Part shown: positions 24,828 through 28,099 of the stretch, one piece after another
Numbering within the stretch: the first letter of the stretch is position 1
Layout: every line of letters starts with the position of its first letter
DNA from: Candidatus Eiseniibacteriota bacterium
GTDB taxonomy: Bacteria > Eisenbacteria > RBG-16-71-46 > CAZAMP01
Direction of reading: 5' to 3'
Assembly (NCBI GenBank): GCA_965224245.1
Contig: OZ245046.1
Coordinates: 3,040,001 to 3,104,000, forward strand
DNA length: 64,000 bases
Notes under the pieces: generated by a model
The model's input: only the letters and a program-made list of their open reading frames with translations
The model's database searches: none
What the model was told of the DNA's origin: nothing
Position numbers and translations under genes: made by a program

Positions 24828-26528
24828 GTGAGCATCACGACGCCGGACTACGAGACGCTCCGGGAGACGACGCGGTGGTCGTCGTCGGCCGAGGCGCTGG
24901 GCCTCACGCCCGGCGGCCGCGTGAACATCGGTGAGATCTGCGCCGACCGCATCGTCGGACTCGGTCACGGCGCGCGCACCGCGCTCATCCACGAGGACCA
25001 CGACGGACGCGTGCGCTCGTTCACGTTCGAGGATCTGCGCGTGCTGTCGAACGGATGGGCGTCGTTCCTGACCGCGCACGGGCTCCGGGAGCAGGACCGG
25101 GTGGCGCTGTTCCTGGAGCGGGTGCCCGAGCTGTACGTGAGCGTCCCGGGGATCCTGAAGGCCGGGGCGGTCGTGCAGCCCCTCTTCTCGGCGTTCGGAG
25201 AGGATGCGCTCCTGCAGCGACTCGCGGACAGCGGGGCCACCGTGGTCGTCACGCAGCGCAAGCTCCTGGGGCGCGTGCGGCGCATTCGTGACCGGCTGGA
25301 GTCGCTGGCGCTGATCGTCGTGATCGACGCCGGCGAGGACAAGCCGCTCCGCGACGGAGAGATCGCGTTCGACCAGAGCGCTCATCGCGTCGACGCGTTC
25401 GACGTGGCGCGGACGTTCGCCGAGTCGCCGAGCGTGCTCCACTACACCAGCGGGACCACCGGAAAGCCCAAGGGGGCGCTCCACGTGCACGGCTCGGTCC
25501 TGGCTCAGCATCTCTCGAGCCGCCTCGTGCTCGATCTCCGCGAGGACGACGTCTACTGGTGCACCGCCGACCCCGGCTGGGTCACCGGCACGAGCTACGG
25601 CATCATCGGACCGTGGTCGATGGGCGTCACCCAGGTCGTCCTGGACGCCGGTTTCTCGTCGGAGAGCTGGTACCGAACGCTCCAGACGCACCGCGTCACC
25701 GTGTGGTACACGGCGCCCACGGCGATCCGGATGCTGATGAAGGACGGCGCCGAGCTGGCCTGCTCGTTCGATCTGTCCGCGCTCCGGCACATGTGCAGCG
25801 TCGGCGAGCCCCTCAACGCCGAGGCCGTGCTCTGGGGCCGCGAGGCCTTCGGGCTCGACTTTCACGACACGTTCTGGCAGACCGAGACCGGCGCCCACGT
25901 CATCGTGAACCTGCCCGGCCTGCCCGTGAAGCCGGGGTCGATGGGACGTCCGTTCCCGGCCCTGGAGGCGACCGTCCTCGATCCCGAGACGTTCGAGCCG
26001 ATCCAGACGCCCGGCGAGGTGGGCATGATCGCGATCCGGCCGCCGTGGCCGTCGATGATGCGCACCTACTGGAACAACTCCGCCACGTACTACTCGAAGT
26101 TCAAGAACGGCTGGTACGTCTGCGGGGACCGGGGATCGATCGACGCCGACGGCTACTTCTGGTTCTCCGGACGCGACGACGACGTGATCAACACCGGCGG
26201 CCACCTCGTGGGACCGTTCGAGATCGAGAGCGCGCTCCTCGAGCACGAGGCGGTCGCGGAGTCCGCGGCGATCGGCAAGCCCGACCAGGTGAACATGGAG
26301 GTCGTGAAGGCATTCGTGGCCCTCAAGCCCGGCTTGGAGCCCGGGCCCGACCTCGAGCTCTCGATCATGAACTTCATCCGGAAGCGGCTGTCACCGCTGG
26401 CCATGCCCCAGGAGATCGAGTTCGTCGACGCGCTTCCGAAGACGCGCAGTGGTAAGATCATGCGCCGGCTCCTGCGGGCCCGCGAATGGGGCGAGGACGC
26501 CGGAGACACGAGCACGCTCGAGGACTGA
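24828..26528 (+). CDS. acsA: Acetate--CoA ligase (AcsA-type adenylate-forming enzyme)
   Basis: YTSGTTGKPKG, WCTADPGWVTG, DTFWQTETG, GRDDDVI, LPKTRSGKIMRR; AGGAGGT RBS. Confidence 0.88.
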   Translation: MSITTPDYETLRETTRWSSSAEALGLTPGGRVNIGEICADRIVGLGHGARTALIHEDHDGRVRSFTFEDLRVLSNGWASFLTAHGLREQDRVALFLERVPELYVSVPGILKAGAVVQPLFSAFGEDALLQRLADSGATVVVTQRKLLGRVRRIRDRLESLALIVVIDAGEDKPLRDGEIAFDQSAHRVDAFDVARTFAESPSVLHYTSGTTGKPKGALHVHGSVLAQHLSSRLVLDLREDDVYWCTADPGWVTGTSYGIIGPWSMGVTQVVLDAGFSSESWYRTLQTHRVTVWYTAPTAIRMLMKDGAELACSFDLSALRHMCSVGEPLNAEAVLWGREAFGLDFHDTFWQTETGAHVIVNLPGLPVKPGSMGRPFPALEATVLDPETFEPIQTPGEVGMIAIRPPWPSMMRTYWNNSATYYSKFKNGWYVCGDRGSIDADGYFWFSGRDDDVINTGGHLVGPFEIESALLEHEAVAESAAIGKPDQVNMEVVKAFVALKPGLEPGPDLELSIMNFIRKRLSPLAMPQEIEFVDALPKTRSGKIMRRLLRAREWGEDAGDTSTLED

Positions 26529-26595
26529 TGGCGTCAGGATCGAGCGTCGAGCCGCACGATGCGGCCCGGTCCAATCCCGAAGGAGACTGGTCGAC

Positions 26596-26847
26596 ATGAA
26601 GGACGTGATCCTCGAGTACGTTCGCAACGAATACCTCGACGAGGACGACGACGACGACATCGAGCTGAACGAGAACACGCCGCTCATCTCGAGCGGCATC
26701 GTGGACAGCTTCTCGATGGTGAGCCTAAAGCGCTTCCTGGAGAAGAAGTACGACATCACGATTCCCGATGCCGAGGCCACGCCGGACGCCTTCGACACGG
26801 TCGAGAAGATCGTCGTCCTCGTCGAGCGATTCCAGAAGGAGGGATAG
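26596..26847 (+). CDS. Stand-alone acyl carrier protein
   Basis: 83 aa, acidic, GIVDSFSMV phosphopantetheinyl-Ser motif; AGGAG RBS. Confidence 0.9.
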   Translation: MKDVILEYVRNEYLDEDDDDDIELNENTPLISSGIVDSFSMVSLKRFLEKKYDITIPDAEATPDAFDTVEKIVVLVERFQKEG

Positions 26848-26851
26848 CGCC

Positions 26852-28099
26852 ATGGCCTACCCGGCCGCGTTCAAGAAGGCCTGGGAATCCGAGCTGGCCG
26901 ACATGCGCGAGAAGGGCATCTACAAGGAAGAGCGCTTCATCCACTCGCCCCAGGCCGCGGGCATTCGTGTGGAGTATCCGGCGGGATCCGAGCTGAAGGA
27001 GGTCATCAACCTCTGCTCGAACAACTACCTCGGGCTCTCGAGCCACCCCGACGTCGTTCGGGCCGCCCACGAGGGGCTGGACGAGCGCGGCTTCGGGCTG
27101 TCCAGCGTCCGCTTCATCTGCGGCACGCAGGACATCCATCGCAAGCTCGAGAACGCGGTCACCGAGTTCCTGGGCACCGAGGACACGATCCTGTTCCCGA
27201 GCTGTCTCGACGCGAACGCCGGCGTCTTCGAGGCCATCCTGGGCCCAGAGGACATCATCATCTCCGATCGCCTGGTGCACGCCTCGATCGTGGACGGCAT
27301 CCGCCTGTGCAAGGCGCAGACGGACACCTACAAGCACGCGAACATGGCGCACCTCGAGCAGAAGCTCGAGGAGCACCAGGACAAGCGCATGCGGATGATC
27401 GTCACCGACGGCGTCTTCTCGATGGACGGCGACCTGGCTCCGATGGACCAGATCGTCGCGCTCGGCGAGAAGTACGACGCGCTCGTGTTCAGCGACGAGT
27501 GCCACTCCTCGGGCTTCATCGGCAAGACGGGTCGCGGCGTGCCCGAGCACTTCGGCGTCCACGGCAAGCTCGACGTGATCACCACCACGTTCGGCAAGGG
27601 CCTCGGCGGCGCGTCGGGCGGATGCGTCTCGGGTCGCCAGGCGGTCGTCGACCTGTGTCGCCAGCGGGCGCGCCCGTACCTCTTCTCGAACACGATGGCG
27701 CCGCCGGTGGTCGCGGGAACGCTGAAGGTGCTGGATATCCTGTCGCACACGACCGAGCGCCGCGACAAGCTGGAGGAGAACACGCGCTTCTGGCGCAAGG
27801 GGCTCGCGGAGGCCGGCTTCGTCCTGAAGGAGGGCGACAGCCCGATCGTCCCCGTGATGCTGTTCAACGCCAAGCTCAGCCAGGACGTGGCGCGCGACCT
27901 CTACGCCGAGGGTGTCTACGTCATCGGGTTCTTCTTCCCGGTGGTGGCCCAGGGCCAGGCGCGGATCCGGACGCAGCTCTCGGCCGACCACGACATCCCG
28001 ACGCTGGAGCGCGCGCTGGCCGCGTTCCGCAAGGTCGGCGAGAGGTACGGCATCCTCGGGCTGAGCAAGAAGGAGATCATCGAGACGTTCGGCGCATGA
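26852..28099 (+). CDS. kbl: Glycine C-acetyltransferase (2-amino-3-ketobutyrate CoA ligase)
   Basis: NNYLGL, SVRFICGTQ, TDGVFSMDG, DECH, TFGKGLGGASGG, RQRARPYLFSN, PVVAQGQARIRTQ. Confidence 0.9.
   Translation: MAYPAAFKKAWESELADMREKGIYKEERFIHSPQAAGIRVEYPAGSELKEVINLCSNNYLGLSSHPDVVRAAHEGLDERGFGLSSVRFICGTQDIHRKLENAVTEFLGTEDTILFPSCLDANAGVFEAILGPEDIIISDRLVHASIVDGIRLCKAQTDTYKHANMAHLEQKLEEHQDKRMRMIVTDGVFSMDGDLAPMDQIVALGEKYDALVFSDECHSSGFIGKTGRGVPEHFGVHGKLDVITTTFGKGLGGASGGCVSGRQAVVDLCRQRARPYLFSNTMAPPVVAGTLKVLDILSHTTERRDKLEENTRFWRKGLAEAGFVLKEGDSPIVPVMLFNAKLSQDVARDLYAEGVYVIGFFFPVVAQGQARIRTQLSADHDIPTLERALAAFRKVGERYGILGLSKKEIIETFGA

What the first reader, a model, noticed from the sequence alone, without database searches (positions are those of the whole stretch)
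24828..28099. acs - stand-alone ACP - kbl: possible carrier-protein-dependent acetyl + glycine condensation pathway
Seen: an AcsA-type ligase (DTFWQTET keeps the Trp that restricts the pocket to short acyl groups), an acidic ACP (GIVDSF), and a Kbl-type alpha-oxoamine synthase 4 bp after the ACP stop. There is no tdh in the window. Known: Kbl uses acetyl-CoA, usually sits with threonine dehydrogenase and has no need for an ACP. A ligase + dedicated ACP + alpha-oxoamine synthase trio is the layout of alphaproteobacterial sphingolipid (SPT) and other aminoketone pathways, which use long acyl chains. Inference: acetate or another short acid is loaded onto the dedicated ACP and condensed with glycine, giving 2-amino-3-ketobutyrate/aminoacetone or a related aminoketone. 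This would be a short-chain, ACP-tethered version of the module.
Basis: partly seen in the sequence, partly recalled or inferred. Interest (0 to 1): 0.72.

Follow-up and report, generated by a model that had tools for sequence, protein, structure and literature searches.

The report
Carrier-protein version of acetate–glycine (Kbl) pathway
Three adjacent genes that look like ordinary acetyl-CoA synthetase, a small carrier protein and the threonine/glycine enzyme Kbl form a unit kept together in many bacterial phyla, and it probably runs the familiar acetyl + glycine reaction on a private protein-bound acetyl group instead of on coenzyme A, a variant I found in no paper.

Summary
An AcsA-type ligase (24828-26528), an 83-aa carrier protein (26596-26847) and a Kbl-type alpha-oxoamine synthase (26852-28099, 4 nt after the ACP stop) lie head to tail.

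The trio is conserved. Of 80 related loci from more than ten phyla, 62 have ligase-ACP-Kbl in this order, and 38 also have acpS upstream. The ligase and the Kbl each belong to a subclade of their own, distinct from the stand-alone AcsA and canonical Kbl of the same phylum. The Kbl subclade has SH-aLRT support of 100. The acetate pocket of the ligase is invariant (71/71) and all Kbl catalytic residues are kept (80/80).

In a 201-genome sample of the phylum, 28 genomes carry the ACP, and only 2 of those also have a canonical Kbl. Most of them still have a threonine dehydrogenase. Two unrelated Tdh types sit next to the module in other phyla.

My reading is acetate <-> acetyl-S-carrier <-> (with glycine) 2-amino-3-ketobutyrate <-> threonine. 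The direction is unresolved, and no biochemistry exists. I found no paper describing it; the closest known system is AasR/AcpR/SPT. This scan has already flagged the same module on other genomes (8 earlier notes).

New here:
- A MetX-Hom fusion is tied to the module.
- This genome has no recognisable thrB or thrC.
- All ACP-linked ligases carry an R526->L change.

The parts
24828..26528 (+). AcsA-type AMP-forming ligase of the ACP-linked subclade (566 aa, GTG start); proposed acetate:carrier-protein ligase
   Evidence: Pfam AMP-binding and AMP-binding_C. NF003313 scores 734.3 against a cut-off of 729. The best solved relative is 9g79, a 572-aa acetyl-CoA synthetase, at 530 bits. In E. coli Acs numbering, acetate-pocket residues V310, T311, V386 and W414 and the catalytic K609 are invariant in 71/71. 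R526 is replaced by Leu in 71/71; in the query this is L460, motif GGHL. The genome has a canonical Acs elsewhere (TIGR02188, 975 bits).
26596..26847 (+). Dedicated 83-aa acidic carrier protein; Ser38 in GIVDSF is the presumed phosphopantetheine site
   Evidence: PF00550 scores 21.6 against 20.8. The best NCBIfam hit is NF052616 at 56.7, below its cut-off of 130, and the protein is not AcpP. Nearest solved relatives are type II carrier proteins: 6cxt, PigG, PltL and DltC. It is single-copy in the genome, and the housekeeping AcpP is elsewhere. There are 5785 homologues, the best 71-81% identical. In 45 aligned sequences, 23 columns are invariant.
26852..28099 (+). KblA: Kbl-clade alpha-oxoamine synthase of the ACP-linked subclade (415 aa)
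   Evidence: TIGR01822 scores 562.5 against 493. The best solved relatives are Kbl structures 7bxp at 456 bits and 1fc4 at 427 bits. All catalytic and PLP residues are kept in 80/80. Clade signatures are an insert at residues 39-46, N135V, L264C, L298R and a C-terminal tail. The clade is monophyletic with SH-aLRT 100.
28125..30518 (+). MetX-homoserine dehydrogenase fusion, co-directional and 25 nt after the kblA stop by the longest ORF. Relatives align only from residue 44, so the true start may be near 28254. It is associated with the module in this subclade, but membership is uncertain.
   Evidence: NF001209 (MetX) scores 338.2 against 331. PF00742 and PF03447 mark the Hom domains. In G037 the order is ACP-KblA-MetX/Hom-ligase, and L072 has the same order. 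The fusion occurs in 9 of 201 genomes of the phylum sample, and 7 of those carry the module.

Best explanation
The three genes form a carrier-protein-dependent twin of the CoA-dependent acetate/Kbl chemistry.

Proposed mechanism:
1. The AcsA-like ligase adenylates acetate and transfers the acetyl group to the phosphopantetheine thiol of the dedicated 83-aa carrier protein. In this genome the carrier is made holo by the unlinked AcpS; in about half of the related loci an acpS lies in the operon.
2. KblA, a specialised Kbl paralogue, interconverts acetyl-S-carrier + glycine and 2-amino-3-ketobutyrate + HS-carrier.
3. L-threonine 3-dehydrogenase (SDR-type here, unlinked) connects 2-amino-3-ketobutyrate to threonine. 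Without Tdh, the ketoacid decays to aminoacetone.

Shown: gene identities, conserved synteny, separate subclades for both enzymes, an intact acetate pocket and intact Kbl catalytic residues, near-exclusion of canonical Kbl, and recurrent linkage to Tdh.

Inferred: that the ACP is the thiol acceptor and donor, and the direction of flow. I lean slightly (about 55:45) towards ATP-driven condensation, acetate + glycine -> ketoacid -> threonine. The reason is that an AMP-forming ligase is part of the conserved core, and a private carrier pool can be kept fully acetylated to push a condensation that the CoA pool would not favour.
For: Identity of the three proteins.

Synteny:
- 62 of 80 loci have ligase-ACP-KblA. 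A further 12 have ACP-KblA without an adjacent ligase, 4 have ligase-ACP, and 2 end at a contig edge.
- The 4 ligase-ACP loci carry a divergently placed TIGR01825-type Kbl relative instead of KblA.
- acpS lies upstream in 38 of 80 loci.

Separate subfamilies:
- KblA proteins are 62-79% identical to the query across phyla, against 50-58% for canonical Kbl. ACP-linked ligases are 58-73% identical, against 47-49% for same-phylum AcsA.
- Family scores fall into separate classes: TIGR01822 gives 556-616 against 612-702 bits, and NF003313 gives 735-780 against 824-933 bits.
- The KblA clade has SH-aLRT 100 on a stem of 0.66.

Substrate: the acetate pocket is invariant in 71/71 and Kbl catalytic residues in 80/80.

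A changed thioester step: R526, which stabilises the thioester-forming conformation in Acs (PMC10455477, passages read), is Leu in 71/71 ACP-linked ligases and Arg in 17/17 stand-alone AcsA.

Link to threonine:
- SDR-type Tdh lies next to the module in 5 of 80 loci. A zinc-type Tdh-like gene does so in 3 of 80, of which only one (L065) is a clear Tdh, 66% identical to E. coli Tdh; the other two are 35-36%.
- In the 201-genome sample, 28 genomes have the ACP, and 25 of them have KblA adjacent. One more has KblA in pieces.
- Only 2 of the 28 (G099, G181) also have a canonical Kbl, against 91 of 173 ACP-less genomes. A Tdh is found in 22 of the 28.

Precedent: AasR/AcpR/SPT, where the ligase acylates only its own ACP and the AOS prefers acyl-ACP (PMC9386255, abstract read).
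Against:
- The ligase keeps Arg at the equivalents of CoA-binding R194 and R584 (71/71) and has basic residues near R191, so use of CoA is not excluded.
- It also just passes the curated acetate--CoA ligase cut-off.
- Three ACP+KblA genomes (G053, G118, G144; 97, 83 and 93% complete) have no ACP-type ligase, only a 39%-identical long Acs. In addition, 9 of 80 loci have no ligase within 7 kb. The ligase is therefore not always needed, or something else loads the ACP.
- The near-exclusion of canonical Kbl fits a catabolic replacement at least as well as a biosynthetic role.
- The correlation between the three proteins' distance matrices (r 0.73-0.78) would also arise from shared descent alone.
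Confidence: 0.6

Rival explanations
1. Same carrier-dependent chemistry, but physiologically catabolic. Tdh oxidises threonine and KblA cleaves 2-amino-3-ketobutyrate with the holo-carrier thiol to give glycine + acetyl-S-carrier. The AMP-forming ligase then runs in reverse (acetyl-carrier + AMP + PPi -> acetate + ATP) or merely re-primes the carrier. The module has replaced the CoA-dependent Kbl.
For: - Canonical Kbl is missing in 26 of 28 ACP-bearing genomes, although 22 of the 28 keep a Tdh.
- In ACP-less relatives, tdh and canonical kbl are adjacent, for example in G014 and G071.
- Tdh genes of two unrelated types sit in or beside the module in other phyla.
- Some ACP+KblA genomes lack the ligase. 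That is easier to accept if the ligase is not the entry point.
- Most ACP-bearing genomes checked have ordinary threonine synthesis genes.
- Reverse operation of an AMP-forming Acs is known from Syntrophus aciditrophicus. This is recalled, not read here.
Against: - No enzyme in the conserved core discharges acetyl-carrier other than the ligase. AMP-forming ligases normally run towards the thioester.
- This genome has no thrB or thrC over cut-off, so degrading threonine through a dedicated ATP-linked module seems odd here.
- tdh is adjacent in only 6-8 of 80 loci.
Confidence: 0.22
2. The ligase and Kbl are ordinary CoA-dependent enzymes (acetyl-CoA synthetase and glycine C-acetyltransferase). 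The carrier protein serves another, unidentified pathway or a regulatory role, and the adjacency only reflects co-regulation of acetate and amino-acid metabolism.
For: - Both enzymes pass curated equivalog cut-offs for the CoA-dependent functions.
- The R194 and R584 equivalents are retained.
- All Kbl catalytic residues are retained.
- Some genomes have ACP+KblA without the ligase.
Against: - The ACP sits between the two enzymes with gaps of a few nucleotides, in 62 of 80 loci across more than ten phyla.
- An acpS is recruited in 38 of 80 loci.
- Both enzymes form ACP-linked subclades distinct from the stand-alone forms of the same phylum.
- When KblA is missing, the ligase-ACP pair sits beside another Kbl-family AOS.
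- This genome has a separate canonical Acs.
- R526 is Leu in all 71 ACP-linked ligases.
Confidence: 0.1
3. The module makes a lipid or secondary-metabolite aminoketone from a longer or unusual acyl group: a sphingoid, aminolipid, pyrazine or quorum-signal type starter.
For: - The ligase + ACP + AOS layout matches the sphingolipid AasR/AcpR/SPT module.
- The carrier resembles type II carrier proteins of natural-product pathways.
- Aminoacetone from 2-amino-3-ketobutyrate can give pyrazines (recalled).
Against: - The acetate pocket, including the gating Trp, is invariant in 71/71.
- SPT models score far below their cut-offs: 317 against 640, 271 against 500 and 236 against 670. The CqsA-type model scores 183 against 428.
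- KblA nests inside Kbl.
- No reductase, acyltransferase or other tailoring gene is conserved beside the trio.
- The genome has a separate SPT-like gene elsewhere.
Confidence: 0.05

Closest known systems
AasR / AcpR / serine palmitoyltransferase module of sphingolipid synthesis in Caulobacter crescentus and other Rhodobacteria (PMC9386255; abstract read)
   Same: Both have the same three-part logic: an ANL-family ligase that acylates a dedicated small carrier protein, and an alpha-oxoamine synthase that condenses the carrier-bound acyl group with an amino acid. The genes are clustered in both.
   Different: Here the ligase is AcsA-type with an invariant acetate pocket, not a long-chain acyl-ACP synthetase. 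The AOS is in the Kbl clade (glycine, C2), not an SPT; all three SPT models score far below their cut-offs. The carrier is not related closely enough to be named by any curated model. The product would be 2-amino-3-ketobutyrate, not 3-oxosphinganine. Nothing here has been tested biochemically.
Tdh-Kbl threonine/glycine pathway (E. coli kbl-tdh; Kbl structures 1fc4, 7bxp)
   Same: KblA passes the Kbl equivalog model, keeps every catalytic residue and is 50-58% identical to canonical Kbl. Tdh genes are found next to the module in several phyla and are present in most genomes that carry it.
   Different: KblA is a separate clade with an insert, a C-terminal tail and several fixed substitutions. 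It is wired to a carrier protein, often to acpS, and to an acetate ligase, and it almost never coexists with canonical Kbl in the sampled phylum. In canonical genomes kbl is adjacent to tdh and no ACP is involved.
Bacillus-type acetyl-CoA synthetase AcsA (NF003313 / PRK04319; structure 9g79)
   Same: The ligase scores 530 bits against 9g79. The acetate pocket, the hinge Asp and the catalytic/acetylation Lys are conserved.
   Different: The ACP-linked subclade scores 735-780 bits on the model, against 824-933 for stand-alone AcsA in the same phylum. Its conserved R526 is replaced by Leu in 71/71. This genome also has a canonical Acs.
Citrate lyase ligase CitC acting on the citrate lyase acyl carrier subunit (recalled, not read here)
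   Same: It is an ATP-dependent enzyme that acetylates the thiol of a dedicated acyl carrier protein with free acetate. It therefore sets a precedent for an acetate:carrier-protein ligase.
   Different: CitC belongs to a different enzyme family, and the carrier bears a different prosthetic group. Acetyl-ACP there is a regenerated catalytic cofactor of a lyase. No homology to that system was found or tested here.

Membership tests
Glycine C-acetyltransferase / Kbl (TIGR01822) | Score over the curated equivalog cut-off | tested here: met
   562.5 bits against 493; 562.3 in the genome search.
Glycine C-acetyltransferase / Kbl (TIGR01822) | PLP lysine and the catalytic and glycine-binding residues (E. 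coli K244, H136, D210, H213, S185, T241, N50, R368) | tested here: met
   All are identical in 80 of 80 ACP-linked sequences and in the query. The residue list is recalled from the 1fc4 literature.
Glycine C-acetyltransferase / Kbl (TIGR01822) | Groups with characterised Kbl in a tree | tested here: inconclusive
   It lies inside the Kbl radiation, away from BioF, the SPT-like protein and the TIGR01825-type AOS. It forms its own clade (SH-aLRT 100, stem 0.66), so it is a paralogous subfamily.
Glycine C-acetyltransferase / Kbl (TIGR01822) | Uses acetyl-CoA/CoA as thioester partner | not testable with these tools
   Needs enzyme assays.
Acetate--CoA ligase, AcsA type (NF003313) | Score over the curated cut-off | tested here: met
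   734.3 against 729, so it only just passes. Stand-alone AcsA of the same phylum score 824-933.
Acetate--CoA ligase, AcsA type (NF003313) | Acetate pocket V310/T311/V386/W414 (E. coli/Salmonella numbering) | tested here: met
   Invariant in 71 of 71 ACP-linked ligases.
Acetate--CoA ligase, AcsA type (NF003313) | Conserved Arg triad for CoA binding and the thioester step (R191, R526, R584; PMC10455477) | tested here: not met
   R526 is Leu in 71/71 (Arg in 17/17 stand-alone AcsA and in E. coli). R584 is kept in 71/71. The R191 column is variable, although K/R149 and R151 lie nearby (paper passages).
Acetate--CoA ligase, AcsA type (NF003313) | CoA is the acyl acceptor | not testable with these tools
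   Needs assays with CoA and with holo-carrier.
Acyl/peptidyl carrier protein (PF00550) | PP-binding domain with the conserved Ser in a D-S-x motif | tested here: met
   21.6 bits against 20.8. D37-S38-F39 is invariant in 45 of 45 aligned sequences.
Housekeeping AcpP (TIGR00517) and ACP_for_OlsHI (NF052616) | Score over the curated cut-off | tested here: not met
   TIGR00517 scores 22.6 against 70.45 and NF052616 scores 56.7 against 130. The genome's AcpP is a different gene.
AasR/AcpR/SPT sphingolipid module | Clustered ligase + dedicated ACP + alpha-oxoamine synthase | tested here: met
AasR/AcpR/SPT sphingolipid module | The AOS is a serine palmitoyltransferase | tested here: not met
   NF047603 scores 235.6 against 670, NF047600 scores 317.2 against 640, and NF047599 scores 271.1 against 500.
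AasR/AcpR/SPT sphingolipid module | The ligase activates long-chain fatty acids | tested here: not met
   The best family is acetate--CoA ligase. Long-chain ligase models score far below their cut-offs, and the acetate pocket is invariant.
kbl-tdh operon | tdh adjacent to kbl | tested here: not met
   There is no Tdh in the window. The genome's SDR-type Tdh is about 1 Mb away. Tdh is adjacent in 6-8 of 80 related loci.
Homoserine O-acetyltransferase MetX (NF001209) fused to homoserine dehydrogenase | Scores over cut-offs for both halves | tested here: inconclusive
   MetX NF001209 scores 338.2 against 331 and passes. Hom NF004976 scores 194.4 against 205 and falls just short, but Pfam PF00742 and PF03447 pass.

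The most novel reading that the evidence does not exclude
The module is an ATP-driven route from glycine + acetate to threonine that is gated by a private carrier protein and bypasses homoserine kinase and threonine synthase. The steps would be acetate -> acetyl-S-carrier -> 2-amino-3-ketobutyrate -> L-threonine via Tdh run in reverse. In this genome it would be the only route to threonine. No thrB of three types and no thrC reach their cut-offs, and the only homoserine dehydrogenase found in the window is fused to MetX in the same operon, so homoserine is committed to methionine. The private acetyl-carrier pool might also feed MetX.
Probability: 0.17. Interest if true: 0.85.

Novelty: new variant of a known kind. 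Interest (0 to 1): 0.62.

Why it matters
Tdh-Kbl is a textbook CoA-dependent pathway. Automated annotation labels these three genes as acetyl-CoA synthetase, acyl carrier protein and glycine C-acetyltransferase, so the module is invisible in metabolic reconstructions.

If acetyl is carried on a private protein thiol, then a large set of mostly uncultured bacteria keep a C2 pool separate from CoA for the exchange between threonine, glycine and acetate. These include Acidobacteriota, Eisenbacteria, Gemmatimonadota, Zixibacteria, Ignavibacteriota, Fibrobacterota, Planctomycetota, Myxococcota and Chloroflexota. A separate pool changes how carbon and energy budgets, amino-acid auxotrophies and acetate use are predicted for them.

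It would also extend the AasR/AcpR/SPT principle (dedicated ligase, carrier and alpha-oxoamine synthase) from lipids to central amino-acid metabolism, and it would provide a natural acetate:carrier-protein ligase.

The question is directly testable with four recombinant proteins.

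Tried and rejected
- **Complex prediction.** KblA dimer + ACP, with alignments A1 and A2 prepared. The tool answered that it was unavailable.
- **Expression.** The look-up of sequencing runs listed no RNA holder.
- **General replacement of thrB/thrC.** Rejected as a general rule. 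Most ACP-bearing genomes have a ThrC match. At least 8 (G032, G037, G102, G109, G120, G129, G150, G163) have a TIGR02535-type homoserine-kinase match (G109 at 434.6 bits, just under the 446.3 cut-off), and for five of them (G032, G037, G102, G129, G163) searches place it within a few kb of ThrC. GHMP-type ThrB occurs in only 2 of 28 ACP-bearing genomes against 59 of 173 others, but this tracks families, so I give it no weight.
- **Sphingolipid or OlsHI-type reading.** Rejected on family scores. The OlsH paper was seen only in a search listing.
- **Recent horizontal import, suggested by the GC dip at 26-28 kb.** Rejected. GC3 of the three genes is 0.92-0.95, like the neighbouring genes. The dip reflects the amino-acid make-up of the ACP.
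- **Loss of CoA-binding arginines as proof of ACP specificity.** Not supported. The R194 and R584 equivalents are kept.
- **First gene-neighbour clustering.** It used longest ORFs and picked up antisense ORFs in GC-rich loci. I relied instead on tblastn counts.
- **Genes upstream of the ligase-less ACP-KblA loci.** Nothing informative turned up in G144 or G053.
- **Literature.** Six searches found no paper on the trio. The terms combined Kbl, 2-amino-3-ketobutyrate, glycine C-acetyltransferase, threonine dehydrogenase, alpha-oxoamine synthase, acyl carrier protein, acetyl-ACP, holo-ACP synthase, acetyl-CoA synthetase and Acidobacteria. The library holds only open-access papers and bioRxiv, and supplements were closed.

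Full report
**1. What is in the window**

Four co-directional genes lie on the + strand:
- A 566-aa AMP-forming ligase at 24828-26528, with a GTG start.
- An 83-aa acidic carrier protein at 26596-26847.
- A 415-aa alpha-oxoamine synthase at 26852-28099, whose ATG starts 4 nt after the ACP stop.
- A MetX-homoserine dehydrogenase fusion in the ORF 28125-30518. Relatives align only from residue 44.

Family scans give:

| Protein | Model | Score | Cut-off |
|---|---|---|---|
| Ligase | NF003313, acetate--CoA ligase | 734.3 | 729 |
| AOS | TIGR01822, glycine C-acetyltransferase | 562.5 | 493 |
| Carrier | PF00550 | 21.6 | 20.8 |
| Carrier | NF052616, ACP_for_OlsHI (best NCBIfam) | 56.7 | 130 |

Solved relatives:
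- Ligase: a 572-aa acetyl-CoA synthetase, 9g79, at 530 bits.
- AOS: Kbl structures 7bxp at 456 bits and 1fc4 at 427 bits.
- Carrier: type II carrier proteins 6cxt, PigG, PltL and DltC.

No terminator-like site on the + strand separates the four genes. Upstream are two ZIP transporters and a CHAT/TPR protein. GC3 of the three genes is 0.92-0.95, like the neighbours, so the GC dip at 26-28 kb does not indicate recent import.

**2. The trio is conserved**

The carrier protein has 5785 homologues at E <= 0.001 among 5787 candidates. The 120 listed are 71-81% identical.

Of these, 240 encode a relative, and the best 80 loci were kept. They carry labels of Acidobacteriota, Eisenbacteria, Gemmatimonadota, Zixibacteria, Calditrichaeota, Ignavibacteriota, Bacteroidota, Fibrobacterota, Planctomycetota, Polyangia, Anaerolineae, Armatimonadota and others.

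Arrangement in the 80 loci:

| Arrangement | Loci |
|---|---|
| Ligase directly upstream and Kbl-like gene directly downstream of the ACP | 62 |
| ACP-Kbl without an adjacent ligase (3 of these have the ligase elsewhere in the locus) | 12 |
| Ligase-ACP without the downstream Kbl | 4 |
| Locus ends at a contig edge | 2 |

The four loci with ligase-ACP only (L020, L021, L023, L024) have a divergently transcribed TIGR01825-type Kbl relative instead. L023 scores 569.5 against a cut-off of 535.4.

A holo-ACP synthase gene lies just upstream in 38 of 80 loci. In this genome AcpS and the housekeeping AcpP are elsewhere, and the module's ACP is single-copy.

Pairwise distances of the three proteins over 44 intact loci correlate (r 0.73-0.78; Mantel 0.001). 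Shared descent alone would also produce this.

**3. Both enzymes are specialised paralogues**

The genome has a canonical Acs elsewhere (TIGR02188, 975 bits). I compared this genome with a 201-genome sample of its own phylum. One of the 201, G015, is flagged as unpublished.

Scores fall into separate classes:

| Model | Stand-alone / canonical form | ACP-linked form |
|---|---|---|
| NF003313 (ligase) | 824-933 bits, 18 genomes, none with the ACP | 735-780 bits, 20 genomes, all with the ACP except G050, whose module sits at contig ends |
| TIGR01822 (Kbl) | 612-702 bits | 556-616 bits |

By tblastn:
- ACP-linked Kbl proteins from all phyla are 62-79% identical to the query. Canonical Kbl are 50-58% identical.
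- ACP-linked ligases are 58-73% identical. Same-phylum AcsA are 47-49% identical.

I built a tree from 75 of the 125 sequences collected: 40 of 79 ACP-linked and 25 of 36 canonical sequences drawn at random, plus all 6 low-identity AOS sequences (under 45% identity; five TIGR01825-like and one frameshifted KblA), E. coli Kbl and BioF, and the genome's own SPT-like gene. The ACP-linked proteins form one clade with SH-aLRT 100 on a stem of 0.66, inside the Kbl radiation. The single row labelled otherwise within that clade is a frameshifted copy. The order inside the clade does not follow taxonomy. The query's nearest rows are G037, a Gemmatimonadota MAG, then Eisenbacteria and Acidobacteriota. 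This points to transfer between phyla.

Several loci (L011, L031, L035, L039, L062, L077) carry a canonical Kbl next to the ACP-linked one. L031 scores 651.9 and L077 scores 604.1 on TIGR01822.

**4. Residues**

*Ligase.* I aligned 71 ACP-linked ligases, 17 stand-alone AcsA and E. coli Acs.
- The acetate pocket (V310, T311, V386, W414), the pantetheine-tunnel A357, the hinge D517 and K609 are invariant in the ACP-linked set. The acyl substrate is therefore most likely acetate.
- The sharpest difference is R526. It is Leu in 71/71 ACP-linked ligases (query L460, motif GGHL) and Arg in 17/17 stand-alone AcsA and in E. coli.
- A 2023 study (PMC10455477, passages read) describes R191, R526 and R584 as highly conserved. 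R526 contacts the adenylate phosphate and stabilises the thioester-forming conformation. Replacing it in the M. thermautotrophicus enzyme cut kcat 130- to 326-fold or made the enzyme unsaturable for CoA.
- Against an exclusive ACP role: the equivalents of R194 and R584 are Arg in 71/71, and basic residues lie near the R191 column.

*KblA.* I compared 80 ACP-linked with 37 canonical sequences.
- Every catalytic and PLP residue I checked is kept.
- Fixed signatures are an insert at residues 39-46, N135V, L264C, L298R and a C-terminal tail of about 15 residues containing lysines.

**5. Link to threonine**

An SDR-family gene next to the module in 5 of 80 loci is an L-threonine 3-dehydrogenase. 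It scores 426 and 415 bits against solved TDHs. A zinc-type Tdh lies directly upstream of the ligase in L065, 66% identical to E. coli Tdh. Two further loci have 35-36% relatives. So two analogous enzymes for the same reaction have both been recruited to the module.

This genome has the SDR type, unlinked, and no zinc type over its cut-off.

In the phylum sample:
- 28 of 201 genomes have the ACP (18 of 121 high-quality ones). A same-family genome, G043, lacks it.
- 25 of the 28 have KblA beside the ACP. G140 has it in pieces. The ACP of G096 is itself broken. G145 has only a 39% ACP relative.
- Only G099 and G181 also hold a canonical Kbl. In contrast, 91 of 173 ACP-less genomes have one, typically adjacent to tdh.
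- 22 of the 28 have a Tdh.

In most carriers, then, the only Kbl available to Tdh is KblA.

**6. Mechanism and direction**

The best-supported reading is acetate <-> acetyl-S-carrier <-> (with glycine) 2-amino-3-ketobutyrate <-> threonine. The direction is open.

*For condensation:*
- An AMP-forming ligase is part of the conserved core.
- A private carrier pool can be kept acetylated to drive a reaction that the CoA pool would not.
- Exclusion of canonical Kbl would avoid a futile cycle.
- This genome has no thrC over cut-off. The best candidate is a distant ThrC-like gene scoring 141 against 301 and 61 against 167. It also has no thrB of the three types tested.

*For cleavage:*
- KblA replaces Kbl while Tdh stays.
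- At least 8 ACP-bearing genomes have a TIGR02535-type homoserine-kinase match, and five of them place it within a few kb of ThrC.
- Three ACP+KblA genomes (G053, G118, G144) have no ACP-type ligase.

I therefore give the carrier-dependent chemistry a confidence of 0.6. Within that, I split roughly 55:45 for condensation.

**7. The MetX-Hom fusion**

In G037 the order is ACP-KblA-MetX/Hom-ligase, and L072 has the same order. L036 has a metX next to kblA. These rows form one subclade with the query, so this counts as about one evolutionary event.

Beyond adjacency, the fusion occurs in 9 of 201 genomes, and 7 of those carry the module, often at a distance. Kinship inflates this figure.

Possible meanings, all inferred:
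- Homoserine is committed to methionine while threonine comes from glycine.
- Acetate released later in the MetX/MetY route is recycled by the ligase.
- MetX draws on the acetyl-carrier.

**8. Novelty**

Six full-text searches found no description of the trio. The closest known system is AasR/AcpR/SPT. No curated NCBIfam model names the carrier.

The scan's own notes list eight earlier reports of the same module on other genomes, all with the same reading. My results agree with them and add the following:
- The near-exclusion of canonical Kbl.
- The R526L signature.
- The MetX-Hom link.
- The ligase-less variants.
- The test against thrB/thrC.

I class it as a new variant of a known kind.

Noticed in passing
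whole genome G000 (e.g. L159 = G000:C1:539720-543604): The genome is 97.4% complete but has no threonine synthase over cut-off. The best candidate is a ThrC-like PALP gene next to a glycosyltransferase, scoring 141 against 301 on NF005035 and 61 against 167 on TIGR00260. No homoserine kinase of three types reaches its cut-off either: TIGR00191 scores 33.8 against 168, TIGR00938 scores 26.8 against 256, and TIGR02535 scores 160.6 against 446. The organism is either a threonine auxotroph or uses another route.
   Followed up: partly
window 28125-30518: Homoserine O-acetyltransferase (MetX) is fused to homoserine dehydrogenase in one 754-797-aa protein. The fusion occurs in 9 of 201 genomes of the phylum sample, and 7 of those also carry the ACP module. 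In G037 and L072 it lies between kblA and the ligase.
   Followed up: partly
G000:C1:3260820-3261971 (L002, outside the window): The genome's second alpha-oxoamine synthase is SPT-like. It scores 530.5 bits on NF047600, below the 640 cut-off. An AMP-ligase lies about 7 kb downstream (L089). This may be a sphingolipid-type module separate from the trio.
   Followed up: no
window 23208-23966 and about 23990-24706: Two tandem ZIP-family metal transporter genes lie directly upstream of the ligase. In about half of the related loci that position is occupied by acpS.
   Followed up: no
window 19719-23117 and 42610-45264: There is a large CHAT-protease/TPR protein on the + strand, and a Ser/Thr kinase fused to similar TPR_12/TPR_10 repeats on the - strand.
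   Followed up: no
window 30519-32756: Pfam finds nothing in this stretch. It holds a 643-aa ORF on the - strand (31021-32952) with no family match at E <= 1e-5. It may not be a gene.
   Followed up: no
L006, L040, L043, L051, L054, L084; G026, G032, G096, G140, G182: Several module copies are interrupted: an in-frame stop at codon 11 of kblA in L006, a TAG in G182 kblA, and ligase or kblA in several frames in L040, L043, L051, L054, L084/G032, G026 and G140. The ACP of G096 is split. I could not tell whether these are assembly errors or decay.
   Followed up: no
L069:3625-3852 and 5741-5968: One Bacteroidota locus has two copies of the carrier protein gene, one on each side of the ligase.
   Followed up: no
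L015, L018, L020, L029, L043 (Acidobacteriota/Vicinamibacterales loci): An acetyl-CoA hydrolase/transferase fused to a GNAT domain lies a few kb from the module in 5 loci, and an aldehyde dehydrogenase does so in 8. These loci are closely related to one another, so the pattern may reflect lineage-specific synteny.
   Followed up: no
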